Positions 24,660 to 43,390 of a DNA stretch of 64,000 nt are shown in pieces. The stretch lies in NCBI GenBank assembly GCA_900753165.1, contig CAADYC010000089.1:13371-77370 (forward strand). Reading direction: 5' to 3'. Origin of the DNA: Clostridia bacterium (lineage in GTDB: Bacteria > Bacillota > Clostridia > TANB77 > CAG-508). A model generated the notes under the pieces. The model was not told where the DNA came from, ran no database searches, and saw only the letters and a program-made list of their open reading frames with translations. Numbering within the stretch: position 1 is the first letter of the stretch; the number at the start of each line of letters is the position of its first letter. The position numbers and the translations under genes are program-made.

Positions 24660-24667
24660 TATAAATA

Positions 24668-26550: not shown

Positions 26551-26566
26551 AAGGAGTTGAAAGGGT

Positions 26567-27353: not shown

Positions 27354-27354
27354 T

Positions 27355-28229: not shown

Positions 28230-28244
28230 GGAGGAATAAGTAAA

Positions 28245-28742: not shown

Positions 28743-28750
28743 TTTTATCA

Positions 28751-28795: not shown

Positions 28796-28829
28796 TTTTT
28801 ATTATAAAAATAAAAGGAGGAATATCAAA

Positions 28830-29249: not shown

Positions 29250-29257
29250 TAATAGAT

Positions 29258-29293
29258 AAACACTTACTGAAAAAGTAGGTGTTTATTTTTTTA
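29258..29293 (+). terminator. Rho-independent terminator after the moron
   Basis: AAACACTTAC-tgaaaaa-GTAGGTGTTT followed by ATTTTTTTT. Confidence 0.6.
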
Positions 29294-29310
29294 TATTAGG
29301 AGAGTGAAAA

Positions 29311-30376: not shown

Positions 30377-30380
30377 TAAT

Positions 30381-32537
30381 TTGGATGGATATTTAAAAAT
30401 AAAAACAAAAATAGATAATTCGGGAGTAGATAAAGATATTTCAGAATTAGAAAATAAAATAAAAAAGTTACAGACAGACAATTCGAATAAGAGTCAAGAA
30501 GCAGATATTATGCAAAGAGAAATAGAGAATTATGAAAAAATGCAACAAAAAGCAGATGAATATAAATCAAAAATAAATATACTTAATAAAGAAAGACAAA
30601 ATATGTTTTCTGGAAATATTACTAAAAAATTGAGTAATGAGCAATTACCTGAATATGGAAGAATTACAACAGAGTTAGAAAGTGTAAGAAATAAATATAT
30701 TCAAACAACAAGTGAAATAGATAAACAACAACCTAAAATAGAAAAAATGTATATAAATCTAAGTAAAATAAAAGCAAAACAAAGCGAAAACAATACAAAA
30801 ATTGCTGAATACAAATCAAAAATAGATCAGATAAAAACAGATAGTATACAAAACTCTTTAAGTGGAATAGGAAATAAATTAACAGGGCAAATAAGCACAA
30901 TTGGAAAAATGGCAATGGCTGTGCTTGGGATAAGAACTGCCTGGGGAGCAGTAAGGAGTGCTATTAGTATGGTGTCTCAATATAATAAACAAGTTTCAAC
31001 TGATTTTGATTACATGAGATATTGTATAGCAAGTATGTTAGCTCCTGCTATTCAGGGACTAATAAAACTATTATATACTGTATTAAGCTATGTTAATGCG
31101 ATATCGAGTGCTTGGTTTGGAATAAATTTATTTGGTAATGCAAGTGTGAAAAATTTTAAAAAAATGCAAAGTAGTGCAGGAGGAACAGCAAAATCAGCAA
31201 AAGAAATTCAAAAATCTTTACAAGGATTTGATGAAATGAATGTTTTACAGGATAATTCAAACAAAGATAATTCTGGAAGTAATGGAGGAGTATCGTTACC
31301 AAGCATGGACTTGAGCGGAATACAGGGAGATGTACCAAAGTGGTTACAGTGGATAATAGATAACAAAGACATAGTAATAGCTGCTTTGGCAGGTATGTTA
31401 GCAGGATTATTAGCATTAAAGCTTGGGTTTACGGGAATAGAATCATTAGGAATTGGTATTATGGTGGCAGGAATTGTTCTACTAATAGAAAATATTATTA
31501 AACTTATAAAGGACCCAAGTTGGGAAAATTTTTCTAATGTATTACTTAGTTTATCACTTGTAGTAGCAGGATTAGCGCTTGCAATTGGTGGCACATTAGG
31601 AGTGACTTTGGCAGGTATAGCATCATTGATAGCAGGAGTAGCACTTATCATACAAGGAGTTGTAGCGTATCTAAAAGATCCAACATGGAAGAATTTTGGA
31701 ACAATTTTAGCAGGAATAGCGGTAGTTGTTGGAGCTGTATTACTATTAATTGGAGGGATACCAGCTTTAATAACTGGACTTATATTATTAATTGCTGCAA
31801 TAGGACTAGCTATTTATAAACATTGGGATGAAGTGAAAAATGTGTTAGGGCAAGTTGGACAATGGATATATGATAATGTAATAACTCCAATTGGAAACTT
31901 TATGAAAGCGCTTATTGACTCAATAATATCAAATTTTAAATTTTTATTTTCCATAGCTGAAGGGATTTTTACTGCATTGCTTGGAATTATAATTGCACCA
32001 TTTGAAACATTGTGGGATACCGTAAAAAATGTATTCAATGGAGTACAAACAATTCTTCAAGGAATATCAAATGTATTTAAAGGAATATTTACAGGTGATA
32101 TGAAAACAACGTTAGAAGGATTCAAACAAATATTTAAAGGAGTATTTGATTCTTTGTGGTCTATTGCTAAAGCACCATTAAATTTGATTATAAGAGGAAT
32201 AAATTGGTTGATAAAAGGAGCAAATAAAATACACTTTGATACTCCTGATTGGGTACCTGGTATTGGAGGAAAGACTTTTGGAATTAACATACCTCAAATA
32301 CCGCTATTAGCAAAAGGAGGAGTAATATCACAACCAACGCAAGCAATAATAGGAGAAGCAGGAAGGGAAGCAGTAGTCCCACTTGAAAATAATATGGAAT
32401 GGCTAGATATACTAGCTGACAAATTAGCGAACAAAATAGGTACATCAGGAACGAATAATATATATTTAGATGGAAGATTAATACAAAGACAAATTGCAAA
32501 ACATAAGGAACAATTAGCGTTTGCAACTAATAGATAA
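30381..32537 (+). CDS. Tail tape measure protein (TTG start)
   Basis: 718 aa. N-terminal coiled coil, central cluster of TM helices, C-terminal region. Canonical location. Confidence 0.8.
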   Translation: MDGYLKIKTKIDNSGVDKDISELENKIKKLQTDNSNKSQEADIMQREIENYEKMQQKADEYKSKINILNKERQNMFSGNITKKLSNEQLPEYGRITTELESVRNKYIQTTSEIDKQQPKIEKMYINLSKIKAKQSENNTKIAEYKSKIDQIKTDSIQNSLSGIGNKLTGQISTIGKMAMAVLGIRTAWGAVRSAISMVSQYNKQVSTDFDYMRYCIASMLAPAIQGLIKLLYTVLSYVNAISSAWFGINLFGNASVKNFKKMQSSAGGTAKSAKEIQKSLQGFDEMNVLQDNSNKDNSGSNGGVSLPSMDLSGIQGDVPKWLQWIIDNKDIVIAALAGMLAGLLALKLGFTGIESLGIGIMVAGIVLLIENIIKLIKDPSWENFSNVLLSLSLVVAGLALAIGGTLGVTLAGIASLIAGVALIIQGVVAYLKDPTWKNFGTILAGIAVVVGAVLLLIGGIPALITGLILLIAAIGLAIYKHWDEVKNVLGQVGQWIYDNVITPIGNFMKALIDSIISNFKFLFSIAEGIFTALLGIIIAPFETLWDTVKNVFNGVQTILQGISNVFKGIFTGDMKTTLEGFKQIFKGVFDSLWSIAKAPLNLIIRGINWLIKGANKIHFDTPDWVPGIGGKTFGINIPQIPLLAKGGVISQPTQAIIGEAGREAVVPLENNMEWLDILADKLANKIGTSGTNNIYLDGRLIQRQIAKHKEQLAFATNR

Positions 32538-32579
32538 AAAGCTTATCGAAAGATAGGCTTTTTTAGTTAGGAGGAAGAT

Positions 32580-32951
32580 ATGTTTTTAAACAAAGACAGC
32601 TTATATATGGATAATATATCCATGGGAAAGTACTTAACACAAGTAAAATATGGATATCATAAATTATGGAGTAGTGATAGTGGTAGAGCGTTAAGTGGAA
32701 AACAGAGTGGAACATTAATTGGAATTTTTCCTAAATTTACATTAAGTTTTAGAAGTTTAACCGAAAAAGAATTAACATATTTGGCACCACATTTTGATAA
32801 TGCAAGACAAACTATTAAATATATAGATCCAAATAAAAATAAAGAAATATCAATTGAAACTTATTCAGGAGACTGGGAGATAGTTTATAAAAATATAAAA
32901 AAAGGACAAGCTTTTGATTTATCATTTATTGCAGTAGATAGGAGAAGGTAG
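32580..32951 (+). CDS. Distal tail component (small)
   Basis: 123 aa following TMP. Confidence 0.4.
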   Translation: MFLNKDSLYMDNISMGKYLTQVKYGYHKLWSSDSGRALSGKQSGTLIGIFPKFTLSFRSLTEKELTYLAPHFDNARQTIKYIDPNKNKEISIETYSGDWEIVYKNIKKGQAFDLSFIAVDRRR

Positions 32952-32952
32952 G

Positions 32953-35485
32953 ATGAAGGAAATAACTAATAAATTTAAAAAAGAAATTACTTCTTATGGA
33001 AGAATGTTAGATACAGTAATTACATATACCATAGACGATAAAGAATATTTTTTGGATAGTGATACTCTTTTCTCTGTCACTCCACATTTTGAGGGAAATA
33101 TTTTAAAATCTGTAATGAAACAATTAGACATAGAATCTTCAGAGGCTATACCTAAAAATACTATAATTAATGTTAAATTTGGTGTACAAGTAGATTTAAG
33201 TTTGACAGTAGCAGAAGTACATAATATGAAAGTAAACAGGTTTAATTCATTACCTATTAATTTATTGACACCAGGACTAAAAGGGTTTGAATATATAAAT
33301 TTAGGAGACTATATAGTATCAAAAGAACCAGATTATAATGCGGATTCTATAAGTTATAGTCATGTATGTTATGATATGATGTTATATTCTATGAAAGATT
33401 ATGAAAAAATGAATATTACATTTCCTCTAACAGTAAAAAATTATATTAAAAAAATATGTGATTTTTTAGGGCTAACTTTTGCAAATTATAATGATACATT
33501 TGTAAATTGTGATAAACAATTAACAGAAGATTATTATTTGGGTTATGACTATACCTTCAGAGATGTTTTAGATGAATTAGCACAAGTTACAGCTTCTACT
33601 ATATGTATAAATTCTAAAAACGAATTAGAAATAAGATATATATCAGAAGAAAGTGTAACAGAACTGAATGAAGATTATTTTAAAGATACAAATGTAACAT
33701 TTGATAATGAATACGGGCCAATCAATTCAATAGTATTAAGTAGAAGCGGAGAAAGTGACAATGTTTTTTTACAAGATGAGGATAGTGTTAATAAAAATGG
33801 ATTGTGTGAATTAAAAATAGTAAATAATCAAATAATGAATTATAACAATAGAAGTGAGTATTTGCCAGAGATATTAGGAAAATTAAATGGCTTAAAGTAT
33901 TTTACAAATGATTTTGATAGTTATGGAATATGTTTTTTAGATTTATGTGATAGATACACAGCTAATGTACATGGAAAATTGTATAGCTGTGTTCTTTTTA
34001 ATGATGAAATAAAAATAACACAAGGATTAGAAGAAACAATATACACAGAAATGCCAACTGAAACAAAAACAGATTATGCTAAAGCAGATAAAACAGATCA
34101 AAAAATAAATAAAGCATATATCATTATGGATAAAGTAAATAAAAAATTAGAATCTGTAATAAGTGAAGTTCAAGAAAAATCTGAAAAGTTAACTGAAATA
34201 GAACAAAGTGTTGATAGTATATATCAAAAAGTATCAGACATAGAAGATTTAACAAATGATGTTGAGGGAGTAAAAACAATAACACTTGAAAACTGTGTAG
34301 AAGGCAAATTATTGAATTTACACATATATGGAAACAATACTGTATTTAAGTATTTGTACCCAAACGATACATTATATCCAGGCGATGAACAATATCCAAG
34401 CGGAGATAGCAGAATAGTAGTAAACGACACTGTTTATGAACTAGGTGTATTAGATTTATTAAGACAAAATGACGAAGTATGTGATGAGTTTGTATTAGAA
34501 AATGGTCAAGCAAAAGTAATAAGAAGAGTCAACAAGAGTGGAACAACAAAGGTAAAAGAAAGTGTTGAAGATTTAGGAAAACTTGAAATATTACTAAAAG
34601 AGGGAACTAATACAATAACAAGTCAGAACTATACTGCAAGAATAAAAGCAAAATGGGCAATAAAGAGTGATTACACAGATGTATTGGCAACTAAGGTTGA
34701 AATGAATAGTGAGATAAAACAAACAGCAGATGCAATAAATCTTGAAGTAAGAAAGAAGGTTAACGAAAATGAAGTTATTTCAAAAATTAATCAAAGTGCT
34801 GAACAAATTCAAATTGATGCAAACAAAATTAGCCTTGAACGGTAAAGAAATAAATTTAACAGGAGACAAAATAAATATATTTAGTAATAAATTTAAAGTA
34901 GATAATCAAGGTAATATGGAATGCAATAATGCTCAAATAACAGGTGGAAAAATAAATGTAGGTGCAGATGAAGGTGATATACAAATAAGAGTATATAACA
35001 ATAAATGTGTCAATGAAAATACTTCAATTTATCCAGGTATGATACAAATTCATAGTGATAATGAAACAGGTTATATGATTGATATGGGAATAGCAGAAGG
35101 AGAAGAAAAATTTGGAAGTATGAGATTAGTAAATAGTAGTATATCTTCAGAAACTAAAATTGATGCATATCAAGTTATGTCACCAATTATTTCACAAATA
35201 TCGCTAGAAAAGTATAAAAAGAACTTCGAAAGACTACAAGACAATGCACTTGAAACAATTAAAAATATAGACATATACAAATACAACTTAAAAAGTGAAA
35301 AAGATACAGACAAGAAACATATCGGTTTTGTAATTGGAGATAACTACAACTATTCAAAAGAAGTAACAAGTATAGATAATCAAGGTGTAGATAATTATTC
35401 ATTTACAAGCTTATGTTGTAAGGCAATACAAGAATTATCACAACAAGTTGAAGAATTAAAGAAACAACTAAAGGAGGGAAAATAA
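32953..35485 (+). CDS. Tail fibre / tail-associated protein with C-terminal S74-like intramolecular-chaperone domain; reading frame changes +1 at in-frame CGG 34840-34842
   Basis: 630-aa body ends ..IDANKISLER*. The +1 frame continues GKEINLTGDKINIFSNKFKVDNQGN.. to a C-terminus with DIYKYNL..HIGFVIGDNYNY..SLCCKAIQELSQQVEELKKQL (S74 chaperone-like). Confidence 0.5.
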
Positions 35486-35941
35486 ATGGGATATACAACT
35501 TTTAAAAATAATGGACAACCTGCTTTAAGTGATACAGTATTAAATAATATGCAAGTAGAATTAATGAAACTTGTATTTCCGATTGGTTCTACATATATAA
35601 CACAAGAAAATACAAATCCAAGTACAATACTTAAATTTGGAACTTGGGAAAGATTAAAAGGAAAGGTATGTTTAGGTGTTGATGAAGATGATGAAGATTT
35701 AAAAACAATTGGAAAAACAGGTGGAGAAAAAACACATATATTAACAATAGAAGAAATGCCAGAACACAAGCATGAAATTGCTGCAAGAAATAATAGTGCG
35801 ACAGGATTGTACGAGGTGAAAGCAACAAATGCAACAGGAGATGTTGGTTCTGCTAACACAAAAATAGCAGGTGGAAACAAAGCACATAATAACATGCAAC
35901 CGTACGAGGTAGTAGGTTATATGTGGATAAGGAGGGCATAA
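35486..35941 (+). CDS. Phage tail collar domain protein
   Basis: GKTGGEKTHILTIEEMPEHKHE matches the GG..HTLT..E.P.H.H tail-collar signature. Confidence 0.6.
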   Translation: MGYTTFKNNGQPALSDTVLNNMQVELMKLVFPIGSTYITQENTNPSTILKFGTWERLKGKVCLGVDEDDEDLKTIGKTGGEKTHILTIEEMPEHKHEIAARNNSATGLYEVKATNATGDVGSANTKIAGGNKAHNNMQPYEVVGYMWIRRA

Positions 35942-38091
35942 TGAGTGAAACTGATTTTTTAAAGTTAAAAAAACACGATAATGTAGAAACAAATACAGAA
36001 AAGTTTGATATAGAAAATTACTTAAATGGTAACTGGGATAAGATAGACAAAAATGTGGGCAAAGTTAACACAGACATATCAAACATAAACTCAAAGAATA
36101 AAGAACAAGATACAAATATAGAGCAACTACAAGAAAACACAGAAACATCAAGTAATAAAATAGCAGAACTAGAAAAAGAGTTAAAAGAAGCACAAGAAGA
36201 TTTTTATCAAAACAGCATAAGAGGACAAGCAAGCGGAGAATACATACACGTAGAAGACAGTAGCAACTGCAGAGCAAAAATTGGAATAAGTGGAAATCAC
36301 GAGCAAGAGACGAGAAGTGGAAAGAATAAAATTGAGATTATAAAGACAACAACTACAGTAAATGGATGTACACATACTATTAAGGATGGTACAGATACAT
36401 TAAGTGGTACATCAACAGGATGGGCAAACCTTATAATTTATTCTTTTACTGGTAACGGTAAAACATATACATTAAGTGGTTCACCACAAAGCAGCAAAAA
36501 TATATTTATTTCTGCACATGATAATACACAAAACAAGGATTTAGTAACAAGTAAAAATGGTAATGCTGGAACTTTTGTTGCAACAAGTGGAAATTCTATA
36601 GATATAATTATTTGCGTTGCTCCAAATCTAACATTAGCAAATGAGTTATTTAAGCCACAATTGGAAGAAGGTTCAACTGTTACTGAGTGGGAACAAGGAG
36701 GAGTATCACCTTCACCACACGATCCAAGCAAGATAAAAAGTGTTGGGAGTAATGTTAATTTATTAGAAAATAAAATAACAAGTCAGAAAATAAAGGGCAT
36801 AGATGTAGAAGTGAAAGACAATGGAAAAATAATATTAAATGGAATTGCTACAGAAAATTTTGCACTTGTAATTGGAACAATTAATAAACTTAAAAATATG
36901 ACATTTAGTGGAATGTGTGATGGATATGGATATAATAAGATGATACTTCAGATACAAGGTAAAGACTATAATGTAAATGTAGTCAATTCTAATCAAATAA
37001 CATTATCAGATTTAGATACTGAAGCAACAGTTAGACTGTATATATATAAAGGAACGAGCGTTATAAATGCAATAATAGAACCAAAAATTGTCGAAGGTAC
37101 AGAAGTAGGAGAATACAGCAAATATGGACAAGGCTGTGTTAAAGTAACTAAATGTAATAAGAATATACTTAATATTGAAGATATAGATGAAACAGAAAAA
37201 AGCGGTATAAAATATTCTGTAAAAAATGGTGTACTAAGATTAAATGGAACATCTACTAATACAATTTCTATAAATTTGTTAAAAAACATCAAAATAAAAA
37301 AGGGAAAATATACACATAGTGCTAGTTATATTCAGCTAGAATTGTATATTAGTTTAGACAACATAGCAAATACAATGATAAGTTTACAAAATGGAAAAAA
37401 GATGACATTTGAATTAACAGAAGATAAAGTATATTCAAAATATTTTATCTGGATAGGCAAGGGAACGGTTTTAAATAATGTTGAAATAGAATTGCAATTA
37501 GAACAAGGCTCAACAGAAAGTTCATTCGAACAACACGAAGAACAATCATACATAATGCCAGTTCAAAATGAAATGTTACAAGAAGATTATTTTGACTTTG
37601 ACAATGAAGAAGAAGTGCATACATGGGGAAAATTGGTGTTAAACGGAACAGAGAAAATAGGAATAAGTGGAGCATCAACAGATGAAATACTTGTTGTAGT
37701 TTATGATATAAATAATGCTATTGATGGATTTGGATATAGTAACTGCTTTTTATATTCATCTCAAGTAGCATTAAATAAACTAAATGTCTACAATAATGGG
37801 AAAAACTTAAGAGTTTGTGTAGATAAAAGTAAATTCGTAGATTTAGAATCGTTTAAATCAAAAATAATAGAATTGTATAACGAAGGAACACCAGTTATGA
37901 TTTATTACAAATTACAAACACCAACAAGGCTTGCTTTCACAGACGAACAAAAAGCAGTAGCAAAGGAACTAAACAACGCAAGAACATATAAAAACGTAAC
38001 AAACATAACAACAGATAGTAAAGCAATATTGAGTTTAGACTATGCAAAAGACTTAGAAACATTATTAACCTCAAAAGAAAGTGAGGTGTAG
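35941..38091 (+). CDS. Tail fibre / receptor-binding protein
   Basis: N-terminal coiled coil then long beta-rich region. GGAGGG RBS before ATG 35941. Confidence 0.5.
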   Translation: MSETDFLKLKKHDNVETNTEKFDIENYLNGNWDKIDKNVGKVNTDISNINSKNKEQDTNIEQLQENTETSSNKIAELEKELKEAQEDFYQNSIRGQASGEYIHVEDSSNCRAKIGISGNHEQETRSGKNKIEIIKTTTTVNGCTHTIKDGTDTLSGTSTGWANLIIYSFTGNGKTYTLSGSPQSSKNIFISAHDNTQNKDLVTSKNGNAGTFVATSGNSIDIIICVAPNLTLANELFKPQLEEGSTVTEWEQGGVSPSPHDPSKIKSVGSNVNLLENKITSQKIKGIDVEVKDNGKIILNGIATENFALVIGTINKLKNMTFSGMCDGYGYNKMILQIQGKDYNVNVVNSNQITLSDLDTEATVRLYIYKGTSVINAIIEPKIVEGTEVGEYSKYGQGCVKVTKCNKNILNIEDIDETEKSGIKYSVKNGVLRLNGTSTNTISINLLKNIKIKKGKYTHSASYIQLELYISLDNIANTMISLQNGKKMTFELTEDKVYSKYFIWIGKGTVLNNVEIELQLEQGSTESSFEQHEEQSYIMPVQNEMLQEDYFDFDNEEEVHTWGKLVLNGTEKIGISGASTDEILVVVYDINNAIDGFGYSNCFLYSSQVALNKLNVYNNGKNLRVCVDKSKFVDLESFKSKIIELYNEGTPVMIYYKLQTPTRLAFTDEQKAVAKELNNARTYKNVTNITTDSKAILSLDYAKDLETLLTSKESEV

Positions 38092-38094
38092 ATA

Positions 38095-38382
38095 ATGCAA
38101 GAAATGTTAGAAATGATAAGTAAATTCGGTGTGTCGCTTGTAATAGTTGCATTGTTCTTATATGACTGGTTTACGACAAGAAAAGATATGCAAAAAACAT
38201 TAGAGCAAAACGGTAAGTGTTTAACTGAAATACAAAATACAAATAGAAATACGGCTAAGTCACTTGAACTTTTGCAAAAAAGCATGGACAACCAGTCAGA
38301 GTTTTTGCAAGTGCATGATAAAAGATGTGAAGCGATAGAGAAAGACATCGAAAAAATAGAAATTAGAATGGAGGAAAAATAG
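38095..38382 (+). CDS. BhlA/UviB-like holin
   Basis: 95 aa. N-terminal TM (FGVSLVIVALFLYDWF) then a charged coiled coil. Confidence 0.5.
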   Translation: MQEMLEMISKFGVSLVIVALFLYDWFTTRKDMQKTLEQNGKCLTEIQNTNRNTAKSLELLQKSMDNQSEFLQVHDKRCEAIEKDIEKIEIRMEEK

Positions 38383-38384
38383 TT

Positions 38385-39899
38385 ATGAAAGATAAACAAT
38401 ACAGAAATGTAACTTTAATAATTGTTTCAATTTTGGTAGGATTATTAGGCGGATTTGGATTTTACAATGCAAATAAAGATAAGTCAAATGATGAAATAAT
38501 TAATAGTGCTGTAAATGAAGTGTTAGATTATATTGATAATAAATCTAGTACAGAAATACCAAATCTAACAGAAACAGACGAACAATCATTAGAAGTTCAA
38601 GAAACAGAAGCAGAAGGGTTTGAAGAACAAGGAATAGTAGCATATAATGGTTCAGAAAAAGCACCAAATGTGAATGTTGGAGAATATGCAGGTTTAACAT
38701 ACTATTCTCAATTAGATAGTAGATGGAAAAGTCAAATGTATTCAAGTATAGGAGACACTTCACAAACAATAGGAACATCAGGATGTGGACCAACAAGTGC
38801 TGCAATGGTTGTTTCAAGTATAAAAGGAAATATAACACCAGATTCAATGGCAAATTTATATGTAAATTATGGATATCGTTCAGCAAACCAAGGAACATAT
38901 TGGAGTGCTTTTAAATGGACTGCAGATGTATTTGATATTGGATATAGTGAATGTTATAAATTAGATGATGCAGTAGCAAAATTAAAAGATAATCATTACA
39001 TAATAGCAAGCTGTAATCAAGGATTGTTTACATATGGCGGTCATTTTATAGTTTTAACAGGTGTTGAAGGAGATTATATAAAAGTATATGACCCTTACTT
39101 GTACAACGGTAAATTCGATGTTTCAAGTAGAAGAGGAAAAGCAACAGTTAGTGGTAATACAGTATATGTATCAATAGAAAGCTTTAGAGCATATGCTAAT
39201 TATCAAAAATTCTTCTGTTTTAAAAATGATAGAACAGACATAAAAGAAAATACAACTACAACGGTAGTAACAGACAACACAATATCAAATGTAAATACAG
39301 TAAATTATCAAGTCAAAGTAACTGCAAATGGTGGTTTAAATATAAGAGCTGGAGCAAGTACATCGTATAGTAGAGTTGGTGGATATGCAAAAGGTTCAAT
39401 AGTAACTATATTAGCAGAGTCAAACGGATTTGGGAAAACAGATAGAGGATGGATATCTTTAGCATACACAAGCAGAGACATAAGTACATTAAATACTGTT
39501 CAAACAGTCGGACAAACAAAGAAATTAACTAGAGCTAGTATCTTATATAGTAATTCAAATCTAACAGGTTATAAGTACAATTATAAAGCAAATACAACTA
39601 TAACAATACTACAAAACATATCAAGCAATGTAGATAAAATTAGAGTTAATGTAACAGGTAGAATAGCATATATAAATAACAATAATTATACAAATGTGAC
39701 AGCATCAAAGCCACAAAGCGTGATTAGAAAAACAAAAGCATGTACATTATACTCAAAATCAAATTTGAGCGGTGTAAGATATCAATATAAAGCTAATACT
39801 ACTGTAACAGTTTTACAACATATAAATTCATATGTAGACAAAGTAAGAGTAAATGCAACTGGTAGAATTGCTTATATAAATGTTAATAATTATAGATAA
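38385..39899 (+). CDS. Endolysin: N-terminal signal-anchor, C39-like cysteine peptidase domain, SH3b and two C-terminal repeats
   Basis: TM at residues 10-30. GTSGCGPTSAAMV catalytic-Cys context. SH3b-like GGLNIRAGAST..GWISLAYT. Two ~60-aa repeats (ILYSNSNLTGYKYNYKANTT / TLYSKSNLSGVRYQYKANTT). Confidence 0.75.
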   Translation: MKDKQYRNVTLIIVSILVGLLGGFGFYNANKDKSNDEIINSAVNEVLDYIDNKSSTEIPNLTETDEQSLEVQETEAEGFEEQGIVAYNGSEKAPNVNVGEYAGLTYYSQLDSRWKSQMYSSIGDTSQTIGTSGCGPTSAAMVVSSIKGNITPDSMANLYVNYGYRSANQGTYWSAFKWTADVFDIGYSECYKLDDAVAKLKDNHYIIASCNQGLFTYGGHFIVLTGVEGDYIKVYDPYLYNGKFDVSSRRGKATVSGNTVYVSIESFRAYANYQKFFCFKNDRTDIKENTTTTVVTDNTISNVNTVNYQVKVTANGGLNIRAGASTSYSRVGGYAKGSIVTILAESNGFGKTDRGWISLAYTSRDISTLNTVQTVGQTKKLTRASILYSNSNLTGYKYNYKANTTITILQNISSNVDKIRVNVTGRIAYINNNNYTNVTASKPQSVIRKTKACTLYSKSNLSGVRYQYKANTTVTVLQHINSYVDKVRVNATGRIAYINVNNYR

Positions 39900-39928
39900 A
39901 AAAATGAGGTAAGTTGATTAGTTTCAAT

Positions 39929-40390
39929 TTACCTCTTTTTTTCGTATTTTTCCAGAATTGGTTTAAAGTATTTTTCTTCGGCATCTTTTCGGGCTTTGAT
40001 AGCATCTTGCAAATCGTTAAAATATCCGATATGTTTTGATTTATGATTTACTTGTATTCTTACTCTATATTTACCGTTAATGTAAGAAATGCCAGTGTGT
40101 CCGGTTTTATTATTTTTTTGTGTTTTGTTTTTATAAAATTCTATTTTTTTATTTCTAACAGATTCTAAAGTTAAATTAGAACTTTTACCTTTATTTTTGC
40201 AACTACAACTTGTAATTTCACCACTTAAAACTTGCGTAAAAACTAATTCTTTTATATTTCCACAGTCACATTTAAAAAGAGCGAGCTTAGAATTATTCTT
40301 ATCAAGTTTATTTGAATTTTTTATTAAAGTAAGATGATTAAATCGTTTGCTAATATAATCATCTATGTTATAACCTCTCATTTTTACCAT
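39929..40390 (-). CDS. AP2-domain DNA-binding protein (HNH-associated type)
   Basis: GISYINGKYRVRIQVNHKSKHIGYFNDLQDAIKARKDAEEKY is an AP2-like domain. CxC/CxC N-terminal region. Confidence 0.55.
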   Translation of the reverse strand: MVKMRGYNIDDYISKRFNHLTLIKNSNKLDKNNSKLALFKCDCGNIKELVFTQVLSGEITSCSCKNKGKSSNLTLESVRNKKIEFYKNKTQKNNKTGHTGISYINGKYRVRIQVNHKSKHIGYFNDLQDAIKARKDAEEKYFKPILEKYEKKR

Positions 40391-40563
40391 TCGCTTTCAT
40401 AATAGTTATTTCTTTTTTTACATCATCATAAATTAATTTTACTTGTCTGTTTTTTTCATCAATTCCGCATATCTTTTAGTATAGAAGAAGGGAGAGTAAG
40501 CCTTTTGGTTATACTTCCACTTCCTGCTTTATTAAAAGATACATTTAATAATCTTTCTTCCAT
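40368..40563 (-). CDS. AbrB/SpoVT-like small regulator, interrupted at in-frame CGG (plus-strand 40465-40467)
   Basis: MEERLLNVSFNKAGSGSITKRLTLPSSILKDM then, +1, GIDEKNRQVKLIYDDVKKEITIMKANGKNERL, a swapped-hairpin-like pattern. GGAGGA RBS. Confidence 0.45.
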
Positions 40564-40571
40564 AGATCCTC

Positions 40572-41054
40572 CTATTTTATTATATTTAATATTTTTTCAA
40601 TTTTATTTTCAATATCATCATCATATAAAATATCTGTTATTTTATTAGAATTACCTTGCCATAAAATTTTATTACATTTTGCAACAGTTTCTCCGTCATG
40701 ACCTGTTTCAATTTCTTCACCTTCAAAAAATGTAACTATTTCTCTTTCAGTTATATGCCCATAACGGCAAGCAAAATCTATTCCATCTTCTGTTAGTTCA
40801 AAACAGCTACAACCATCTAAAGTCCAATTATCTTCTATATATTCTTTTTTTAGTTTATTGTATTCTTCTATAAATTTATCAGTATCTTCAATTTCATTTA
40901 CAATCTTGTTATATCTATTTAAATAATAGTTATCAACACGTCCCTCTTCAAATTCAAAATCGACCATTGTCATTGCGTCATCACCGTATAAAACTGATTT
41001 GTGTTCTGTACCTTTAAAATCTTTTTTATCACAATCAAATCTAAAATATATCAT
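40572..41054 (-). CDS. Hypothetical acidic protein
   Basis: Start chosen at MIYFRF with a GAGAGGT RBS. 160 aa. Confidence 0.45.
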   Translation of the reverse strand: MIYFRFDCDKKDFKGTEHKSVLYGDDAMTMVDFEFEEGRVDNYYLNRYNKIVNEIEDTDKFIEEYNKLKKEYIEDNWTLDGCSCFELTEDGIDFACRYGHITEREIVTFFEGEEIETGHDGETVAKCNKILWQGNSNKITDILYDDDIENKIEKILNIIK

Positions 41055-41258
41055 ATTAATTACCTCTCTTTCATTTGTTAAATATATTATATATGACGTA
41101 ACGTCAAAAGTCAATACCTTTTTCAAAAAAGTTAAAAAATTTTTGAAATGGCTGAAAATACTGAAAAATCAAGGTATATAATTACATTGATTAAAAAATA
41201 AAACGGCTTAAAATTGATTCTAAAAGCTCCATTTTTGGCTAAAAATAAGCATTTTTTA

Positions 41259-41291
41259 CTTGAAATCACATAAAATTTATGGTATAATGTT
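41259..41291 (+). promoter_or_regulatory. Promoter (TTGAAA ... TGGTATAAT) leading into a hairpin-rich, apparently noncoding leader (41292-41745)
   Basis: Extended -10 read directly. Downstream perfect hairpins TGTTACA/TGTAACA, ATATTACA/TGTAATAT, AGAGAGAA/TTCTCTCT, ATCAGCAG/CTGCTGAT. Confidence 0.35.
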
Positions 41292-41787
41292 GACAGATAG
41301 AAAAAGAAATGTTACAATTCTGTAACAGAAATATTACATTTATTTTAAATAATTGTAATATCTATTGACACAAATGAATAATAATATTATTATAATAAAA
41401 AAAGAAAGAGAGAACTATTTCTCTCTGTCTACCGTTTACCTAACTGAATTGGAGTTCTCCGCACGAACTTCAATTTTTTCTTTTGAGAAAGATAGGTATG
41501 TATTGTATCTTATTGTGGCACACAAAAACACAAAAAATCCAATTATAAATGCTATTAAAGCTCTACCGAGATATTTTATTGCTAAATCGTTGATGTTACT
41601 TTTTTCCAACTTTATCACTCCCTTCTTAGCAAAGTTTAAACTGCGGAACAGGTACAGTTTATCAACAGTTATGGAAGAAAACTGCCTTGCTATCAGCAGC
41701 ATAACTGCTGATTAATATACCTGTTGTTAGAGTGATATATAAACGATAGACACAATATATCAAAAAAAGAATATATTGTCAATAAAA

Positions 41788-41889
41788 TGTCGAAAATTCT
41801 GTGGATAATTTTGCAATGACTGTGGAAAAAATATTCGAAGCTGTGGATAACTTTGTAAAATAATGTAAAATCTTCGACACCGTTCGACA
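41788..41889. promoter_or_regulatory. Cluster: Spo0A box TGTCGAA (41788-41794); three DnaA-box-like 9-mers at exact 21-bp spacing (41800-41808 and 41842-41850 TGTGGATAA, 41821-41829 TGTGGAAAA); tandem Spo0A boxes TTCGACA (41873-41879, 41883-41889)
   Basis: Exact matches to the DnaA-box consensus TTATCCACA (reverse complement) and the 0A-box consensus TGNCGAA, read directly. Lies upstream of the TGTTATAAT -10 at 41908-41916. Confidence 0.5.
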
Positions 41890-41933
41890 CACATAATTAA
41901 CATAATATGTTATAATACAGATGAGGTGATGAT

Positions 41934-42113
41934 ATGAACGAAGCATATAACAAATCACTACAAATGATAAAATATTTAAAAATAAGATTAACAAGAAAGC
42001 AATATACAGAATTAGCAAAGAGATTCAATTTATTAAGTATACAGAGTTTACAATTTATATCAAAAAGAAGTTATGAAAGTATACTTACAGAAATACTGAA
42101 AGAAGTTGCATAA
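41934..42113 (+). CDS. Hypothetical 59-aa protein downstream of the DnaA/0A box cluster
   Basis: GAGGTGA RBS, ATG 41934, and a terminator at 42116-42144. Confidence 0.35.
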   Translation: MNEAYNKSLQMIKYLKIRLTRKQYTELAKRFNLLSIQSLQFISKRSYESILTEILKEVA

Positions 42114-42115
42114 TT

Positions 42116-42144
42116 TAAGTCCCGTTTGGGGCTTTTCTTTTTGT
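42116..42144 (+). terminator. Rho-independent terminator
   Basis: AAGTCCC-gttt-GGGGCTT followed by a T-run. Confidence 0.5.
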
Positions 42145-42487
42145 GTATAATTTTTTTGAGAATGTATATAATATAAACATGATTAATTATTATGAAAAAA
42201 GTAAAAAAGAATTTATAAAATATATAAAAAAGAATCCGTATGTGACAAGAGAAGAATGGGACGAATATGCTCATAAAAATTATTTATTCAGTGCATTTAC
42301 TTTGTGTTCTCATGAAATAACAGAAAATACATTAGAAATATTGCAAAAGCATAGTAAGAATGAGTTTGAATTTTTAAAAGAAATGTTTATAATAATTCCA
42401 GACAATCGTTTAATAATTTTGAAGAATAAAATAAAGAAAATTATTGGCTTAAAAAGAAAAAGCGAGGGAAAAGATGCAACAAGATAA
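42143..42487 (+). CDS. Hypothetical protein (start uncertain, possibly ATG 42179)
   Basis: 114-aa ORF. An extended -10 (TGTATATAAT) sits just upstream of 42179. Confidence 0.4.
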   Translation: MYNFFENVYNINMINYYEKSKKEFIKYIKKNPYVTREEWDEYAHKNYLFSAFTLCSHEITENTLEILQKHSKNEFEFLKEMFIIIPDNRLIILKNKIKKIIGLKRKSEGKDATR

Positions 42488-42848
42488 TGTAAAGAGAATA
42501 AAGAGTTTAAGAAATAAATTGCATAAAAGCATCAAAAAACACGGAGTAAATGCAGAAGAAACAAGAAAAATAAGCGATGAAATGGATAAGTTAATAAACG
42601 AATATTATAATAATATACAAAGAATAAGCTATCCTGCTGATAGCGAAATGAAAGTATATTATGAACAGTCATATAAGCAACTGAAAATCGTAACACAACA
42701 GTTAGAACGATTTCCGTCTACACAAGAGTGGAATAAATTTGCAAAAGAAAATTGTTTACTAAGTAGTATGTCTATGCAATATATTTCAAAACTGAACTGG
42801 AATTATTTAAGAGCTAAGGTTTTAAGAGAATTAAATATGGATATATAA
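42474..42848 (+). CDS. Spo0E-like (aspartyl-phosphate phosphatase family) protein with C-terminal extension
   Basis: N-terminal KRIKSLRNKLHKSIKKHGVNAEETRKISDEMDKLINEYY resembles the Spo0E family two-helix motif (..L...L.....G.....V...S..LD.LI.EY.). Confidence 0.5.
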   Translation: MQQDNVKRIKSLRNKLHKSIKKHGVNAEETRKISDEMDKLINEYYNNIQRISYPADSEMKVYYEQSYKQLKIVTQQLERFPSTQEWNKFAKENCLLSSMSMQYISKLNWNYLRAKVLRELNMDI

Positions 42849-42854
42849 AAAATA

Positions 42855-42890
42855 AAAAAATTTTTCCGCACAGTTATTGACTTTGCGGAC
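42855..42890 (+). terminator. Hairpin TCCGCA...TGCGGA plus T-run; TGTCGAA 0A-box-like 7-mer just downstream (42893-42899)
   Basis: Read directly. Confidence 0.4.
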
Positions 42891-43081
42891 TTTTTTGTCG
42901 AAAACGAGATTGGAAAACTTGACATTATTTTTCATTCATATAAAATAAGAAAGAAGAAGATAGTTGACGGCAATCTTTTATCTTCTTCTAACCACAAATT
43001 CATACTTAAAAATAAGTACATATACAGTATAACTTCTTAAGTATGAAATGTCAAATTTTTATATGAAAGAAGGTTTAAGCT

Positions 43082-43354
43082 ATGAAAGATGTAGTAAAAA
43101 ATGAAATAGTAAACGAAAATCAAAGAAAAATATTTACAAAAAATGATGGAAAGGGTATAATTTATAACAAGTATAATCTCTTAAATAAAAATTATTTTTA
43201 CGAAAGAGAGGGATTGTATATGAGAAAAACAGAAGATATTGTGTTAAAAAGATTAAATATTGTCGAAAGAGTATTTTTTAAGAAAAAATTCATTGAAATT
43301 TATAAAGAAGGTGTAAAAGCAGGTTTTAATTGGAATAATTGTAATGTTCGTTAA
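43082..43354 (+). CDS. Hypothetical protein, last prophage gene
   Basis: 90 aa. AAGGTTTAAG RBS-like. Confidence 0.4.
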   Translation: MKDVVKNEIVNENQRKIFTKNDGKGIIYNKYNLLNKNYFYEREGLYMRKTEDIVLKRLNIVERVFFKKKFIEIYKEGVKAGFNWNNCNVR

Positions 43355-43370
43355 TTATTGTTGCCCAGTT

Positions 43371-43390
43371 GAGGCACCAGAGGAAGAATA
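43371..43390. repeat. attR core: 20-bp copy of TTGCCCAGTTGAGGCACCAG
   Basis: Identical to 4256-4275. Followed by the native ferredoxin C-terminal codons (..APEEE stop at 43398-43400). Confidence 0.75.

What the first reader, a model, noticed from the sequence alone, without database searches (positions are those of the whole stretch)
42474..42848. Prophage-encoded Spo0E-like phosphatase, in a genome whose spo0A lies in the same window
The N-terminal 45 residues (KRIKSLRNKLHKSIKKHGVNAEETRKISDEMDKLINEYY) fit the Spo0E-family helical hairpin that dephosphorylates Spo0A~P. It is fused to an ~80-aa C-terminal extension.

Together with the 0A boxes on two other prophage promoters, this suggests the phage manipulates the host sporulation decision, for example to prevent entrapment in spores or to couple induction to Spo0A state.
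Basis: partly seen in the sequence, partly recalled or inferred. Interest (0 to 1): 0.6.

Follow-up and report, generated by a model that had tools for sequence, protein, structure and literature searches.

The report
Prophage Spo0E-like phosphatase fused to repeat domain
A gut Clostridium prophage carries a conserved three-gene cassette whose last gene fuses a Spo0E-type "sporulation brake" to an extra helical domain, flanked by binding sites for the sporulation master regulator Spo0A, so the phage probably tunes whether its host makes spores, though no activity has been tested.

Summary
ORF 42474..42848 (+, 124 aa) matches Pfam Spo0E-like (PF09388) over the whole profile (E 9e-11, 42 bits against a cutoff of 23). 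It keeps the SxxxD signature (S34, D38) and models as the two-helix hairpin.

It is truly prophage-borne. A 20-bp att core repeat (4256-4275 and 43361-43380) brackets a 39.1-kb serine-integrase prophage. A metagenome contig with the same host flanks lacks exactly 4276..43360. Host spo0A is at 62433..63251.

New findings:
- The about 70-aa C-terminal extension is one divergent unit of the homing-endonuclease-associated repeat (PF18780) superfamily.
- The same domain occurs in both upstream genes (59 aa and 102 aa). In other phages, genes 2 and 3 are fused into one protein.
- At least 50 protein clusters (50% identity) share the Spo0E-plus-domain architecture.
- In unrelated phages the cassette always lies between the lysin and the integrase/att site.
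- Five of the window's nine perfect 0A boxes (2.3 expected) flank the cassette, including a tandem pair 3 bp apart at its promoter. The box after the gene's terminator is kept in all 13 related loci that contain that stretch.

Phage spo0E genes are already known in silico, so this is a new variant. Phosphatase activity and any effect on sporulation remain untested.

The parts
42474..42848 (+). Spo0E-like / HNH_repeat-like fusion gene (124 aa), the finding itself
   Evidence: ORF and translation. Pfam PF09388 E 9e-11. 115 homologues. dN/dS about 0.1 against close relatives, up to 0.3 against the most distant where dS is saturated.
42492..42611 (+). Spo0E domain (residues 7-46), an antiparallel two-helix hairpin
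   Evidence: Pfam match covers profile positions 3-42 of 42. Profile hit to 2BZB. AF2 helices 2-23 and 28-47. Foldseek matches to 2C0S and to phage TP-84 Spo0E.
42573..42587 (+). Codons for the S34-D-E-M-D38 SxxxD signature motif
   Evidence: S34 is invariant. D38 is kept in at least 90% of 37 homologues, with N in three. It aligns with SRDLD of 2BZB. The motif is defined in PMC11115286. Position 5 is D in 26 of 33 motif-bearing diverse fusion proteins.
42645..42845 (+). C-terminal domain (residues 58-124), a divergent unit of the homing-endonuclease-associated repeat (PF18780) superfamily
   Evidence: Helices 58-77, 83-92, 101-105 and 109-119. The domain profile (A4) finds 181 clusters, including PF18780 arrays. 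Not detected directly by the Pfam model.
42179..42487 (+). Gene 2 of the cassette (102 aa from ATG; the longest ORF starts at GTG 42143). Its N-terminal 45 aa carry the same domain type, and its end overlaps the fusion gene by 14 nt.
   Evidence: hhalign against A4: probability 83%, E 1e-5. BLASTP to the N-terminus of P0117: E 3e-11. In P0117 and P0119 this domain is fused to Spo0E plus the C-domain in one protein. Called as a 102-aa gene in L013-L015.
41934..42113 (+). Gene 1 of the cassette (59 aa), a stand-alone copy of the C-terminal domain
   Evidence: BLASTP to residues 63-120 of the fusion protein, E 9e-6. Many 55-75 aa stand-alone homologues.
42117..42134 (+). Terminator- or attenuator-like hairpin plus U-run between genes 1 and 2
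   Evidence: Terminator scan. Fold dG -9.5 kcal/mol, z -3.8. A similar hairpin lies in the leader of the remote locus L022.
41873..41889 (-). Tandem perfect 0A boxes (TTCGACA-CCG-TTCGACA as read on the + strand), 3 bp apart, ending 21 bp upstream of the -10 box
   Evidence: The second box is exact in 7 of 8 aligned loci (L009 has one mismatch); the first is exact in 4 of 8 and one base off in the rest. Sequence conservation across the loci begins at the boxes. A related tandem pair is present in remote L022.
41908..41916 (+). Predicted extended -10 (TGtTATAAT) of the cassette promoter. There is no canonical -35 at 17 bp.
   Evidence: Sequence. TAYAAT in all 8 aligned loci, TATAAT in six.
41800..41850 (+). 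Three CTGTGGA(T/A)AA repeats (DnaA-box-like TGTGGATAA) at a 21-bp period, upstream of the 0A boxes
   Evidence: two of the window's three perfect matches are here. Present in L002, L007 and L008 but absent from L001, L003 and L010.
41788..41794 (+). Perfect 0A box next to the -35 of a divergent minus-strand promoter (41782-41754)
42865..42896 (+). Intrinsic terminator of the fusion gene (A-run, hairpin, U-run; looks bidirectional)
   Evidence: Fold dG -12.7 kcal/mol, z -3.1. Nearly invariant in 10 loci.
42896..42902 (+). Perfect 0A box directly after the terminator, 16 nt upstream of a TTGACA -35
   Evidence: Invariant in the 10 aligned sequences, which are the window and nine related loci. 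Exact match in L004 and in remote L020, L022 and L023.
42919..42946 (+). Promoter-like site (TTGACA-16-TAAAAT) for the downstream 90-aa gene
   Evidence: 11 of 12 consensus matches. Invariant across loci.
42952..42989 (.). 11-bp-stem hairpin (AGAAGAAGATA / TATCTTCTTCT). It is followed by a T-run on the minus strand only, and its 16-nt loop is inverted between loci.
43026..43054 (-). Minus-strand promoter-like site TTGACA-17-TATACT. Both hexamers are invariant even in remote loci, while the spacer varies.
43082..43354 (+). Gene 4 (90 aa, unknown function), the last gene before attR. Counterparts of 64-106 aa follow the fusion gene in remote phages.
   Evidence: No Pfam, PHROG or NCBIfam hit.
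43261..43267 (+). Perfect 0A box inside gene 4
4256..4275 (+). attL core (TTGCCCAGTTGAGGCACCAG), in the 3' end of a small 4Fe-4S ferredoxin gene (4116-4292)
43361..43380 (+). attR core (identical 20 bp), followed by the original ferredoxin 3' end (…EAPEEE*)
   Evidence: The empty site in L016 shows a 20-bp overlap of the two flank alignments.
4343..5713 (-). Large serine recombinase (prophage integrase)
   Evidence: Pfam Resolvase plus Zn_ribbon_recom.
62433..63251 (+). Host spo0A, the presumed target
   Evidence: Response_reg plus Spo0A_C, E 3.7e-46.

Best explanation
The gene is the third gene of a moron-type cassette. The cassette sits at the attR-proximal end of a 39.1-kb temperate phage that a serine integrase has inserted into the 3' end of a ferredoxin gene of a human-gut Clostridium.

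**The protein has two domains.**
- Residues 2-47 form a Spo0E-family helical hairpin with the SxxxD signature (S34, D38). By homology, this hairpin docks on the receiver domain of phosphorylated Spo0A. Its aspartate promotes hydrolysis of the aspartyl-phosphate, or at least occludes the site. Either way, Spo0A~P falls and entry into sporulation is delayed or prevented.
- Residues 58-124 form one helical unit of the homing-endonuclease-associated-repeat superfamily. The two upstream genes each carry one copy of the same domain, and gene 2 is fused to gene 3 in other phages. The domain most likely assembles the three products with one another, or tethers the phosphatase to a partner or to DNA. 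This would be analogous to the regulatory C-terminal tail of B. subtilis Spo0E.

**Regulation.** The cassette has its own promoter and terminator, so it can be expressed from the prophage. The promoter has two perfect 0A boxes 3 bp apart over a missing -35 element, the layout of Spo0A-controlled promoters. A further conserved 0A box precedes the promoter of the downstream gene. I infer that Spo0A~P controls the cassette, probably activating it. That would make a phage-imposed negative feedback holding Spo0A~P below the sporulation threshold.

**Shown:** family membership, motif, domain architecture, prophage location, conservation of synteny and of the boxes.
**Inferred:** the target, catalysis, the sign of regulation, and the phenotype.
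For: **Spo0E identity**
- Pfam E 9e-11 with full profile coverage.
- Profile hit to 2BZB in register.
- Hairpin modelled with pLDDT above 90.
- Structural matches to 2C0S and to phage TP-84 Spo0E.
- SxxxD conserved (motif definition and its role in contacting Spo0A in PMC11115286).

**Real, selected gene**
- 115 homologues, nearly all of constant length.
- dN/dS about 0.1 in both halves against close relatives, up to 0.3 against the most distant where dS is saturated.

**Prophage-borne**
- 20-bp att repeat.
- Empty site L016 lacks exactly 4276..43360.
- Integrase, S24 repressor, terminase and lysin are present.
- The same protein occurs on about 39-kb virome contigs named Caudoviricetes.

**Moron position conserved across unrelated phages**
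- It always lies between the lysin and the integrase/att, in phages with tyrosine integrases and different lysins.

**Shared domain and functional linkage of the three genes**
-.
- 50 of 149 representative clusters carrying the domain also carry Spo0E.

**0A boxes**
- 9 found against 2.31 expected; 0 of 100 shuffles reached 9.
- Five lie within 1.5 kb around the cassette, where about 0.05 are expected (my Poisson estimate).
- The tandem pair has a 3-bp spacer, as in bona fide Spo0A sites of phi29 and Nf (PMC2731898).
- TGTCGAA is valid for a clostridial Spo0A (PMC3485338).
- The boxes are conserved in related and remote loci.

**Target present:** spo0A is in the same genome.
Against: - No activity, expression or binding data exist.
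- The protein is outside the 40-100 aa single-domain format of characterised Spo0E proteins.
- D38 is N in 3 of 37 close homologues, and E, N or other residues in 7 of 33 distant ones.
- The function of the C-terminal domain is unknown. No solved or viral predicted structure matched it.
- The whole intergenic region after the gene is highly conserved, so invariance of that 0A box among close relatives is not specific to the box. The remote loci are the better evidence.
- The TTCGACA repeats could be operators of a phage protein rather than Spo0A sites.
- The promoter has an extended -10, so it may not need an activator. The sign of Spo0A control is a guess.
- A terminator-like hairpin lies between gene 1 and genes 2-3.
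- An integrated prophage is inherited through spores anyway, so the selective benefit of blocking sporulation is not obvious.
Confidence: 0.6

Rival explanations
1. The protein is a non-catalytic Spo0A binder or sensor. The hairpin binds Spo0A (or Spo0A~P), and the C-terminal domain anchors the complex to DNA or to the paralogous small proteins. The phage uses this to read, or locally block, Spo0A at its own 0A-box promoters. The purpose would be to decide between maintaining lysogeny, induction, or lytic gene expression in stationary phase, rather than to lower cellular Spo0A~P globally.
For: - C. difficile Spo0E is modelled as occluding the Spo0A phosphorylation site, and it also binds a second regulator, RstA (PMC11115286).
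- The fusion to an HNH_repeat-superfamily unit, a repeat otherwise found in homing-endonuclease-associated arrays, suggests tethering.
- The prophage has further 0A boxes at intergenic sites such as 18482 (tandem with TGTCAAA) and 28751.
- The catalytic Asp is occasionally replaced.
Against: - The SxxxD Asp is conserved in most members, including very distant ones (26 of 33). That conservation is what a catalytic residue would show.
- The C-terminal domain is roughly charge-neutral by inspection, with no demonstrated DNA binding.
- No structural match to a known DNA-binding fold reached significance.
Confidence: 0.17
2. The target is not Spo0A. The Spo0E-like hairpin acts on another host or phage response regulator, or serves as a generic helical adaptor within a DNA-targeting module of HNH_repeat proteins. 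Any link to sporulation is then only nominal.
For: - PF09388 is a short, 42-position helical profile.
- Weak coiled-coil-type hits to unrelated families also appear.
- All three cassette proteins share the HNH_repeat-like domain, and an HNH-endonuclease-like ORF lies 2 kb away.
- 99 of 149 clusters carrying the domain have no Spo0E part.
Against: - The Spo0E match is 19 bits above the curated cutoff, with full-length coverage and the signature motif in register with a solved Spo0E-like phosphatase.
- All characterised family members act on Spo0A~P (established knowledge; PMC11115286).
- Perfect 0A boxes cluster around the cassette and are conserved in unrelated phages.
- The hosts are Clostridia that encode Spo0A.
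Confidence: 0.15
3. The gene is an inert passenger or a decaying remnant at the prophage end, with no function.
For: It lies in a region with a truncated IS200/Y1 transposase and a variable insertion.
Against: - Constant 124-aa length in nearly all 115 homologues.
- dN/dS about 0.1 in both domains against close relatives.
- Conserved ribosome-binding site, promoter and terminator.
- Conserved position in unrelated phages.
Confidence: 0.03

Closest known systems
Spo0E family aspartyl-phosphate phosphatases (B. subtilis Spo0E, YisI, YnzD; B. anthracis BA1655 / PDB 2BZB and BA5174 / PDB 2C0S)
   Same: PF09388 match, antiparallel two-helix hairpin, and the SxxxD-x-LIN-x-Y signature on helix 2 (ISDEMDKLINEYY here, FSRDLDKLINKF in 2BZB). 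The encoding organism has Spo0A.
   Different: - Those proteins are chromosomal, single-domain and 50-85 aa.
- This one is phage-borne and 124 aa, with a folded C-terminal HNH_repeat-superfamily domain.
- It sits in an operon with two paralogous domain proteins.
- Its activity is untested.
C. difficile Spo0E (53 aa; DiCandia et al. 2024, PMC11115286)
   Same: A clostridial setting, where Spo0A is phosphorylated without a phosphorelay. The SxxxD motif is modelled in that paper as contacting the Spo0A receiver domain. There is precedent for a second binding partner (RstA).
   Different: - That protein is a host gene with no extra domain.
- That study's ortholog survey filtered for 40-100 aa, which would have excluded this 124-aa architecture.
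Phage and prophage spo0E-like genes reported in silico (Bernard et al., bioRxiv 10.1101/2021.07.15.452460; MBE 2023, PMC10075063), and the annotated Spo0E protein of Geobacillus phage TP-84
   Same: A Spo0E homologue carried by a temperate phage of a spore former. The same hypothesis applies: the phage manipulates Spo0A~P. PF09388 hits were noted to be prevalent in the Gut Phage Database.
   Different: - Those cases are short Spo0E proteins, several lying next to an RRNPP quorum-sensing receptor.
- Here there is no receptor or propeptide nearby.
- Instead there is a domain fusion, two paralogous partner genes, and 0A boxes on the cassette's own promoters.
- No INPHARED phage record encodes this protein.
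Spo0A control of phi29 and Nf promoters through 0A boxes (PMC2731898)
   Same: Several perfect TGTCGAA boxes in a phage genome, with tandem boxes separated by 3 bp at promoters.
   Different: - phi29 is a lytic Bacillus phage that is passively repressed by Spo0A so that it becomes trapped in spores.
- Here the boxes flank a gene predicted to act back on Spo0A~P, giving a feedback topology.
- The phage here is temperate and clostridial.
Homing endonuclease associated repeat (Pfam PF18780, HNH_repeat)
   Same: A profile of the C-terminal domain retrieves PF18780 arrays (library-wide E 2.6e-23 to 1e-6). It aligns with the first half of each canonical unit (helix, then h-P-T-x-x-E-[WF]-x-x-[YFH]-A), and a conserved W-N lies in the second half.
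   Different: - The Pfam model itself does not detect this domain.
- It is a single unit, not an array.
- It is fused to Spo0E rather than to a nuclease.
- The second half reads LLSxxSxxYISKLNWNYL instead of FGSWNxALxxAGL.

Membership tests
Spo0E family (PF09388) aspartyl-phosphate phosphatases | Profile match above the curated gathering score | tested here: met
   42 bits against a cutoff of 23, E 9e-11, profile positions 3-42 of 42. Precomputed PF09388 on nearly all homologues.
Spo0E family (PF09388) aspartyl-phosphate phosphatases | Antiparallel two-helix hairpin fold | tested here: met
   AF2 helices 2-23 and 28-47, with block pLDDT 93-94. Foldseek to 2C0S: probability 0.77, TM 0.63 by target. 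TP-84 Spo0E: probability 0.98, TM 0.87. The E-values themselves are weak because the fold is tiny.
Spo0E family (PF09388) aspartyl-phosphate phosphatases | SxxxD signature with the functionally critical Asp | tested here: met
   S34-DEM-D38. S34 is invariant and D38 is kept in at least 90%. In register with SRDLD of 2BZB. Motif per PMC11115286.
Spo0E family (PF09388) aspartyl-phosphate phosphatases | Small single-domain protein (about 40-100 aa) | tested here: not met
   124 aa with a second folded, conserved domain at residues 58-124.
Spo0E family (PF09388) aspartyl-phosphate phosphatases | Binds the Spo0A receiver domain and dephosphorylates Spo0A~P | not testable with these tools
   Needs biochemistry or genetics. 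No complex prediction was attempted, because the structure tool returns only pLDDT, pTM and secondary structure, with no interface measure.
Spo0E family (PF09388) aspartyl-phosphate phosphatases | Occurs in an organism that encodes Spo0A | tested here: met
   62433..63251 carries Response_reg plus Spo0A_C, E 3.7e-46.
Homing endonuclease associated repeat (PF18780 HNH_repeat) | Direct match to the Pfam model | tested here: not met
   No PF18780 hit at E up to 1 for the window protein.
Homing endonuclease associated repeat (PF18780 HNH_repeat) | Profile-level homology to bona fide repeat arrays | tested here: met
   Profile A4 hits P0120 (E 2.6e-23), P0180 (nine PF18780 units, E 3.5e-11), P0190, P0218 and P0225. 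Local hmmsearch matches every unit of P0180. hhalign against the single sequence P0180 was weak (probability 16.5%).
Homing endonuclease associated repeat (PF18780 HNH_repeat) | Tandem arrays, or association with a homing endonuclease | tested here: not met
   Single unit per protein. The three adjacent genes each carry one unit. The only nuclease-like ORF (39929..40390) lies in a variable insertion that related phages lack.
Prophage moron / lysogenic-conversion cassette | Lies inside the prophage boundaries | tested here: met
   att cores at 4256-4275 and 43361-43380. The empty site L016 lacks 4276..43360.
Prophage moron / lysogenic-conversion cassette | Autonomous promoter and terminator, located between the lysis genes and the att site | tested here: met
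   Predicted signals only: -10 at 41911-41916, terminator at 42865-42896. The same position is kept in unrelated phages. Expression in lysogens was not testable.
Spo0A-regulated (0A-box) promoters, phi29 / spoIIG type | Perfect TGTCGAA boxes, tandem with a 3-bp spacer, at the promoter | tested here: met
   41873-41879 and 41883-41889, ending 21 bp upstream of the -10. Enrichment of 9 against 2.3 expected. Conserved.
Spo0A-regulated (0A-box) promoters, phi29 / spoIIG type | Spo0A binding and Spo0A-dependent transcription | not testable with these tools
   Needs EMSA or footprinting, and reporter assays.
RRNPP quorum-sensing-linked viral spo0E (Bernard et al.) | Adjacent RRNPP receptor (250-460 aa) plus a propeptide gene | tested here: not met
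   The neighbouring ORFs are 59, 102, 90 and 88 aa, with no TPR or HTH receptor.

The most novel reading that the evidence does not exclude
The cassette is a self-contained phage "Spo0A governor". A Spo0A~P-activated prophage operon makes a Spo0E phosphatase that is assembled or tethered through an HNH_repeat-type domain with two paralogous partner proteins. A convergent promoter pair with an antisense RNA, and a fourth conserved gene, add further control. Together they clamp host Spo0A~P below the sporulation threshold. Different phage lineages of human-gut Clostridia carry the same cassette (at least 50 protein clusters). If true, temperate phages would systematically set the sporulation propensity of gut commensals, and hence their transmission.
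Probability: 0.25. Interest if true: 0.72.

Novelty: new variant of a known kind. Interest (0 to 1): 0.5.

Why it matters
Sporulation governs the persistence and host-to-host transmission of many gut Firmicutes. Whether their phages actively steer that decision is an open question, supported so far mainly by gene inventories.

This locus offers a concrete, compact and widespread test case:
- a Spo0E-type brake on a prophage;
- an unreported domain fusion;
- two partner genes linked to it by a gene-fusion event in other phages;
- Spo0A boxes on its own promoters, which predict a feedback loop.

Natural lysogen and non-lysogen pairs with identical flanks exist in metagenomes.

The work also assigns a first functional context to a divergent branch of the uncharacterised homing-endonuclease-associated repeat. 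In addition, it shows that size-filtered surveys of Spo0E orthologues (40-100 aa) miss a large phage-borne subfamily.

Tried and rejected
- **DNA search, INPHARED phages:** 39900-44050 gave no match. tblastn of the protein against the same collection also gave no match. The phage is known only from metagenomes and viromes.
- **PHROGs and NCBIfam:** no family for any of the four cassette proteins.
- **BLASTP of gene 2 against the fusion protein:** not significant. The relationship appeared only with the profile and through the fused homologue P0117.
- **hhalign of the domain profile against the single sequence P0180:** weak, probability 16.5%. The HNH_repeat link therefore rests on the HMMER whole-library E-values and the per-repeat matches.
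- **Rfam on 39800-44100:** only a chance miRNA-like hit on a REP-like hairpin.
- **Two context look-ups failed** because I included the stop codon of minus-strand genes. The corrected look-up worked.
- **Is the gene outside the prophage?** I considered this because homology to related phages stops at 43108-43239. The att core at 43361 and the empty site reject it.
- **Is the Spo0E hit a coiled-coil artefact?** I considered this because of weak hits to MCP, SMC and designed helical bundles. The score margin, the full profile coverage and the in-register signature motif reject it.
- **RRNPP-linked spo0E:** rejected, since no receptor is nearby.
- **Complex model with the Spo0A receiver:** not attempted.
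Full report
**1. Observation.**

ORF 42474..42848 (+) encodes 124 aa. It starts at ATG behind a GAGGG ribosome-binding site, and its start overlaps the end of the upstream ORF by 14 nt.

Pfam-A gives PF09388 SpoOE-like at E 9e-11 and 42 bits, against a curated cutoff of 23. Residues 7-46 cover profile positions 3-42 of 42. Every other hit is a sub-threshold helical or coiled-coil match.

A single-sequence search of PDB puts the B. anthracis Spo0E-like protein 2BZB first (E 0.17). A profile of 37 homologues raises this to E 7e-4, with ISDEMDKLIN aligned to FSRDLDKLIN. The family signature is SxxxD, with a functionally critical Asp that is modelled as contacting the Spo0A receiver domain (PMC11115286). 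Here it is S34-D-E-M-D38. S34 is invariant, and D38 is kept in at least 90% of the 37 homologues, with N in three.

An AlphaFold2 model built with that alignment has mean pLDDT 85.8, with helices at 2-23 and 28-47 forming the hairpin. The hairpin superposes on the Spo0E-like phosphatase 2C0S (probability 0.77, TM 0.63 by target length). It also superposes on the 52-aa Spo0E-family protein of Geobacillus phage TP-84 (probability 0.98, TM 0.87).

**2. The gene is inside a prophage.**

The window holds the following prophage genes:
- a large serine recombinase at 4343..5713 (-);
- a LexA-like S24 repressor at 5863..6528 (-);
- a terminase at 19998..21320;
- a lysin at 38385..39899.

A 20-bp sequence, TTGCCCAGTTGAGGCACCAG, occurs exactly twice, at 4256-4275 and 43361-43380. 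The left copy lies in the 3' end of a small 4Fe-4S ferredoxin gene. The right copy is followed by the displaced original 3' end.

A metagenome contig, L016, encodes an identical copy of the right-flank TPP-enzyme subunit. It has the gene order TPP enzyme, Y1 transposase, 56-aa ferredoxin, PSP1, holB, with no prophage. The window aligns to L016 up to 4275 and again from 43361, and the two alignments overlap by 20 bp in L016. So 4276..43360, which is 39,085 bp, is the inserted element.

The Spo0E-like gene therefore lies inside the prophage, 513 bp from the attR core. Integration changes the ferredoxin C-terminus from …EAPEEE to …EAPVETND.

The same protein, or near-identical ones, occurs on roughly 39-40-kb viral contigs. 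In GenBank TPA virome records it is named "Caudoviricetes sp.". The closest genome bins are human-gut Clostridium MAGs. The host spo0A is at 62433..63251 (Response_reg plus Spo0A_C, E 3.7e-46).

**3. The C-terminal extension.**

Residues 58-124 are as conserved as the hairpin. F80, P81, W86, A90, L96, W109, L112 and E119 are invariant. Against relatives within 75% identity, dN/dS is 0.06-0.09 for this part and 0.09-0.14 for the N-terminal part. For the three most distant pairs it is 0.11-0.34 in either half, but dS is saturated there.

The 59-aa ORF two genes upstream (41934..42113) is homologous to residues 63-120 (BLASTP E 9e-6).

I built a profile of the domain (A4) and searched it against 1.84 billion representative proteins. 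It found 181 clusters at E up to 1e-3. Of the best 149:
- 50 also carry PF09388;
- 10 are arrays of Pfam PF18780, the "homing endonuclease associated repeat";
- most of the rest are 55-100-aa stand-alone proteins.

The profile matches every one of the nine canonical repeats of P0180. It gives library-wide E-values of 2.6e-23 for P0120 and 3.5e-11 for P0180. The Pfam model itself does not detect the window protein, and hhalign against one array sequence is weak. I therefore call it a divergent member of that superfamily, not a PF18780 member.

The N-terminal 45 aa of the middle gene (42179..42487, 102 aa) carry the same domain type (hhalign probability 83%, E 1e-5). In P0117 and P0119 (187 and 197 aa), that N-terminal domain, a Spo0E domain and the C-terminal domain form a single polypeptide. 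P0117 residues 72-187 are 54% identical to the window protein. This gene fusion links genes 2 and 3 functionally.

No solved or viral predicted structure matched the domain significantly. Its molecular role is therefore unknown.

**4. The cassette and its regulatory DNA.**

Eleven related loci, two from genomes and nine from IMG/VR, share the order tail fibre, lysin, cassette. The window has an extra 1.2-1.9 kb between the lysin and the cassette that is absent from the others. It carries an HNH-endonuclease-like ORF.

More distant homologues (52-57% identity) sit in unrelated phages, with tyrosine integrases and Amidase_2 lysins. They again lie between the lysin and the integrase/attP. This is the classic position of a moron.

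Perfect 0A boxes (TGTCGAA) number nine in the window, against 2.31 expected. None of 100 shuffles reached nine. All nine lie in the prophage. Five lie between 41788 and 43267, where I estimate about 0.05 would be expected.

- **Upstream promoter.** Two boxes (41873-41879 and 41883-41889) form a tandem pair 3 bp apart. The pair ends 21 bp upstream of an extended -10 box (TGtTATAAT, 41908-41916), and there is no canonical -35. The second box is exact in 7 of 8 aligned loci. The first is exact in four and one base off in the rest. Sequence conservation across the loci begins at the boxes.
- **Downstream promoter.** A box at 42896-42902 follows the gene's terminator directly (dG -12.7 kcal/mol, z -3.1). 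It lies 16 nt upstream of a TTGACA-16-TAAAAT promoter. This box is kept in all 13 related loci that contain that stretch. That includes the remote L020, L022 and L023, where the surrounding DNA has diverged.

TGTCGAA is the core site for both Bacillus and C. difficile Spo0A. C. difficile has only 102 perfect copies in its genome (PMC3485338). Tandem boxes 3 bp apart are bona fide Spo0A sites on phages phi29 and Nf (PMC2731898).

**5. Mechanism.**

Shown:
- Spo0E-family membership with an intact signature;
- a two-domain architecture;
- paralogous partner genes;
- prophage location;
- conserved synteny, and conserved 0A boxes at the cassette promoters.

Inferred:
- The hairpin binds the receiver domain of host Spo0A~P and promotes its dephosphorylation, or blocks the site. 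This lowers Spo0A~P and delays or prevents sporulation and other Spo0A-dependent programmes.
- The C-terminal domain assembles the three products or tethers the phosphatase. From my own knowledge, C-terminal truncations of B. subtilis Spo0E are hyperactive, which is a precedent for a regulatory C-terminus.
- Spo0A~P controls the cassette. The tandem boxes sit over a missing -35 and the spacer is long, which resembles Spo0A-activated promoters such as spoIIG (again from memory). That would give a negative feedback imposed by the phage. The sign of regulation is the weakest step.

I put 0.6 on the core claim of a Spo0A-directed Spo0E-type inhibitor. I put about 0.4 on the feedback topology.

The rivals are a non-catalytic Spo0A sensor or tether (0.17), a different target or a sporulation-unrelated role (0.15), and an inert remnant (0.03).

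**6. Comparison with what is known.**

Phage-borne spo0E-like genes are already reported computationally. This includes a high prevalence of PF09388 hits in the Gut Phage Database and cases next to RRNPP quorum-sensing systems (bioRxiv 10.1101/2021.07.15.452460 and PMC10075063). TP-84 carries an annotated Spo0E. The mBio survey of sporulation genes in gut phages does not mention spo0E (PMC10294663).

As far as the searched literature shows, the following are new (one search found only one paper mentioning PF18780, and none linking it to Spo0E):
- the fusion to an HNH_repeat-superfamily domain;
- the paralogous two-gene partnership, with its gene-fusion evidence;
- the Spo0A boxes on the cassette's own promoters;
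- the conservation of all this across unrelated gut phages.

The published survey of Spo0E orthologues filtered for 40-100 aa, so it would have missed this subfamily.

Verdict: a new variant of a known kind, with interest about 0.5.

Noticed in passing
window 42919-43054: The intergenic region after the Spo0E-like gene is more conserved than the genes around it.
- It holds face-to-face promoters. On the + strand: TTGACA-16-TAAAAT at 42919-42946. On the - strand: TTGACA-17-TATACT at 43054-43026.
- The minus-strand hexamers are invariant even in remote phages, while the spacer varies.
- The minus-strand transcript would end at hairpin 42989-42952 plus a T-run. That would make a putative antisense sRNA of about 78 nt (z -3.05) overlapping the 5' UTR of the 90-aa gene.
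- There is no Rfam match.
   Followed up: partly
window 42963-42978, and L001-L010 at about 10490-10510: The 16-nt loop of the 11-bp-stem hairpin is inverted between loci. The window, L003, L005, L008 and L010 read GTTGACGGCAATCTTT. L001, L002, L006 and L007 read (A)AGAGATTGCCGTCAAC. This is a hairpin-loop flip-flop. It suggests that only the stem is under selection, or that template switching recurs there.
   Followed up: partly
window 43030-43084: In the 5' leader of the 90-aa gene (43082..43354), a CUUCUU stretch is predicted to pair with the AAGAAGG Shine-Dalgarno region. The pairing is kept, with some compensatory changes, in 7 loci. It may be a translational control element.
   Followed up: partly
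window 41800-41850: Three CTGTGGA(T/A)AA repeats lie at an exact 21-bp period. TGTGGATAA is the reverse complement of the DnaA-box consensus TTATCCACA. They sit just upstream of the tandem 0A boxes. They are present in the window, L002, L007 and L008, but not in L001, L003 or L010. They could be DnaA sites or operators for a cassette protein.
   Followed up: partly
window 18482-18498, 28751-28757, 22995, 37089: The other four perfect 0A boxes are also inside the prophage; the roughly 25 kb of host DNA has none. The box at 18482 is tandem with a one-mismatch box 3 bp away (TGTCGAA-ATA-TGTCAAA). It lies in an intergenic region about 30 bp upstream of a Shine-Dalgarno and ATG, just before the terminase region.
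   Followed up: partly
window 4116-4292 and 43361-43391: The serine-integrase prophage is inserted in the last codons of a 56-aa 4Fe-4S ferredoxin gene downstream of PSP1/ricT. The gene stays open, with a changed C-terminus (…EAPVETND instead of …EAPEEE).
   Followed up: yes
window 39929-41126 (-): A variable insertion between the lysin and the cassette is absent from the related phages. It has a 153-aa ORF matching HNH-endonuclease PHROGs (phrog_374, E 3.5e-28) and a 184-aa ORF with no hits. It is probably a homing-endonuclease-type mobile insertion.
   Followed up: partly
window 41436-41702 (-), 41260-41393: An 88-aa ORF with one predicted hydrophobic helix lies on the minus strand. It has its own promoter-like site (41782-41754, with a 0A box at 41788 beside the -35) and a terminator (41426-41407), and it diverges from the cassette promoter. 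Three strong sigma-A-like promoter matches at 41260-41393 (+) have no obvious ORF.
   Followed up: no
window 43393-43430, 43612-43893, 44019-44055: Just outside attR, an IS200/Y1-type transposase gene is truncated to 93 aa; it is 252 aa in the empty-site contig L016. It is flanked by inverted copies of a G+C-rich palindrome (CGGGATTGGGGGACGGGTCTCCAATCCCG). This resembles a REP-associated tyrosine transposase (RAYT) with REP-like elements. The only Rfam hit, a weak miRNA match, falls on this hairpin.
   Followed up: no
window 17765-17840: A tRNA-Gln (UUG) gene is carried inside the prophage.
   Followed up: no
window 60194-63251: spo0A is not preceded by spoIVB, as it is in the textbook arrangement. 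Its upstream neighbours are a HI0933-like flavoprotein and a UPF0029 (YigZ/IMPACT) protein.
   Followed up: no
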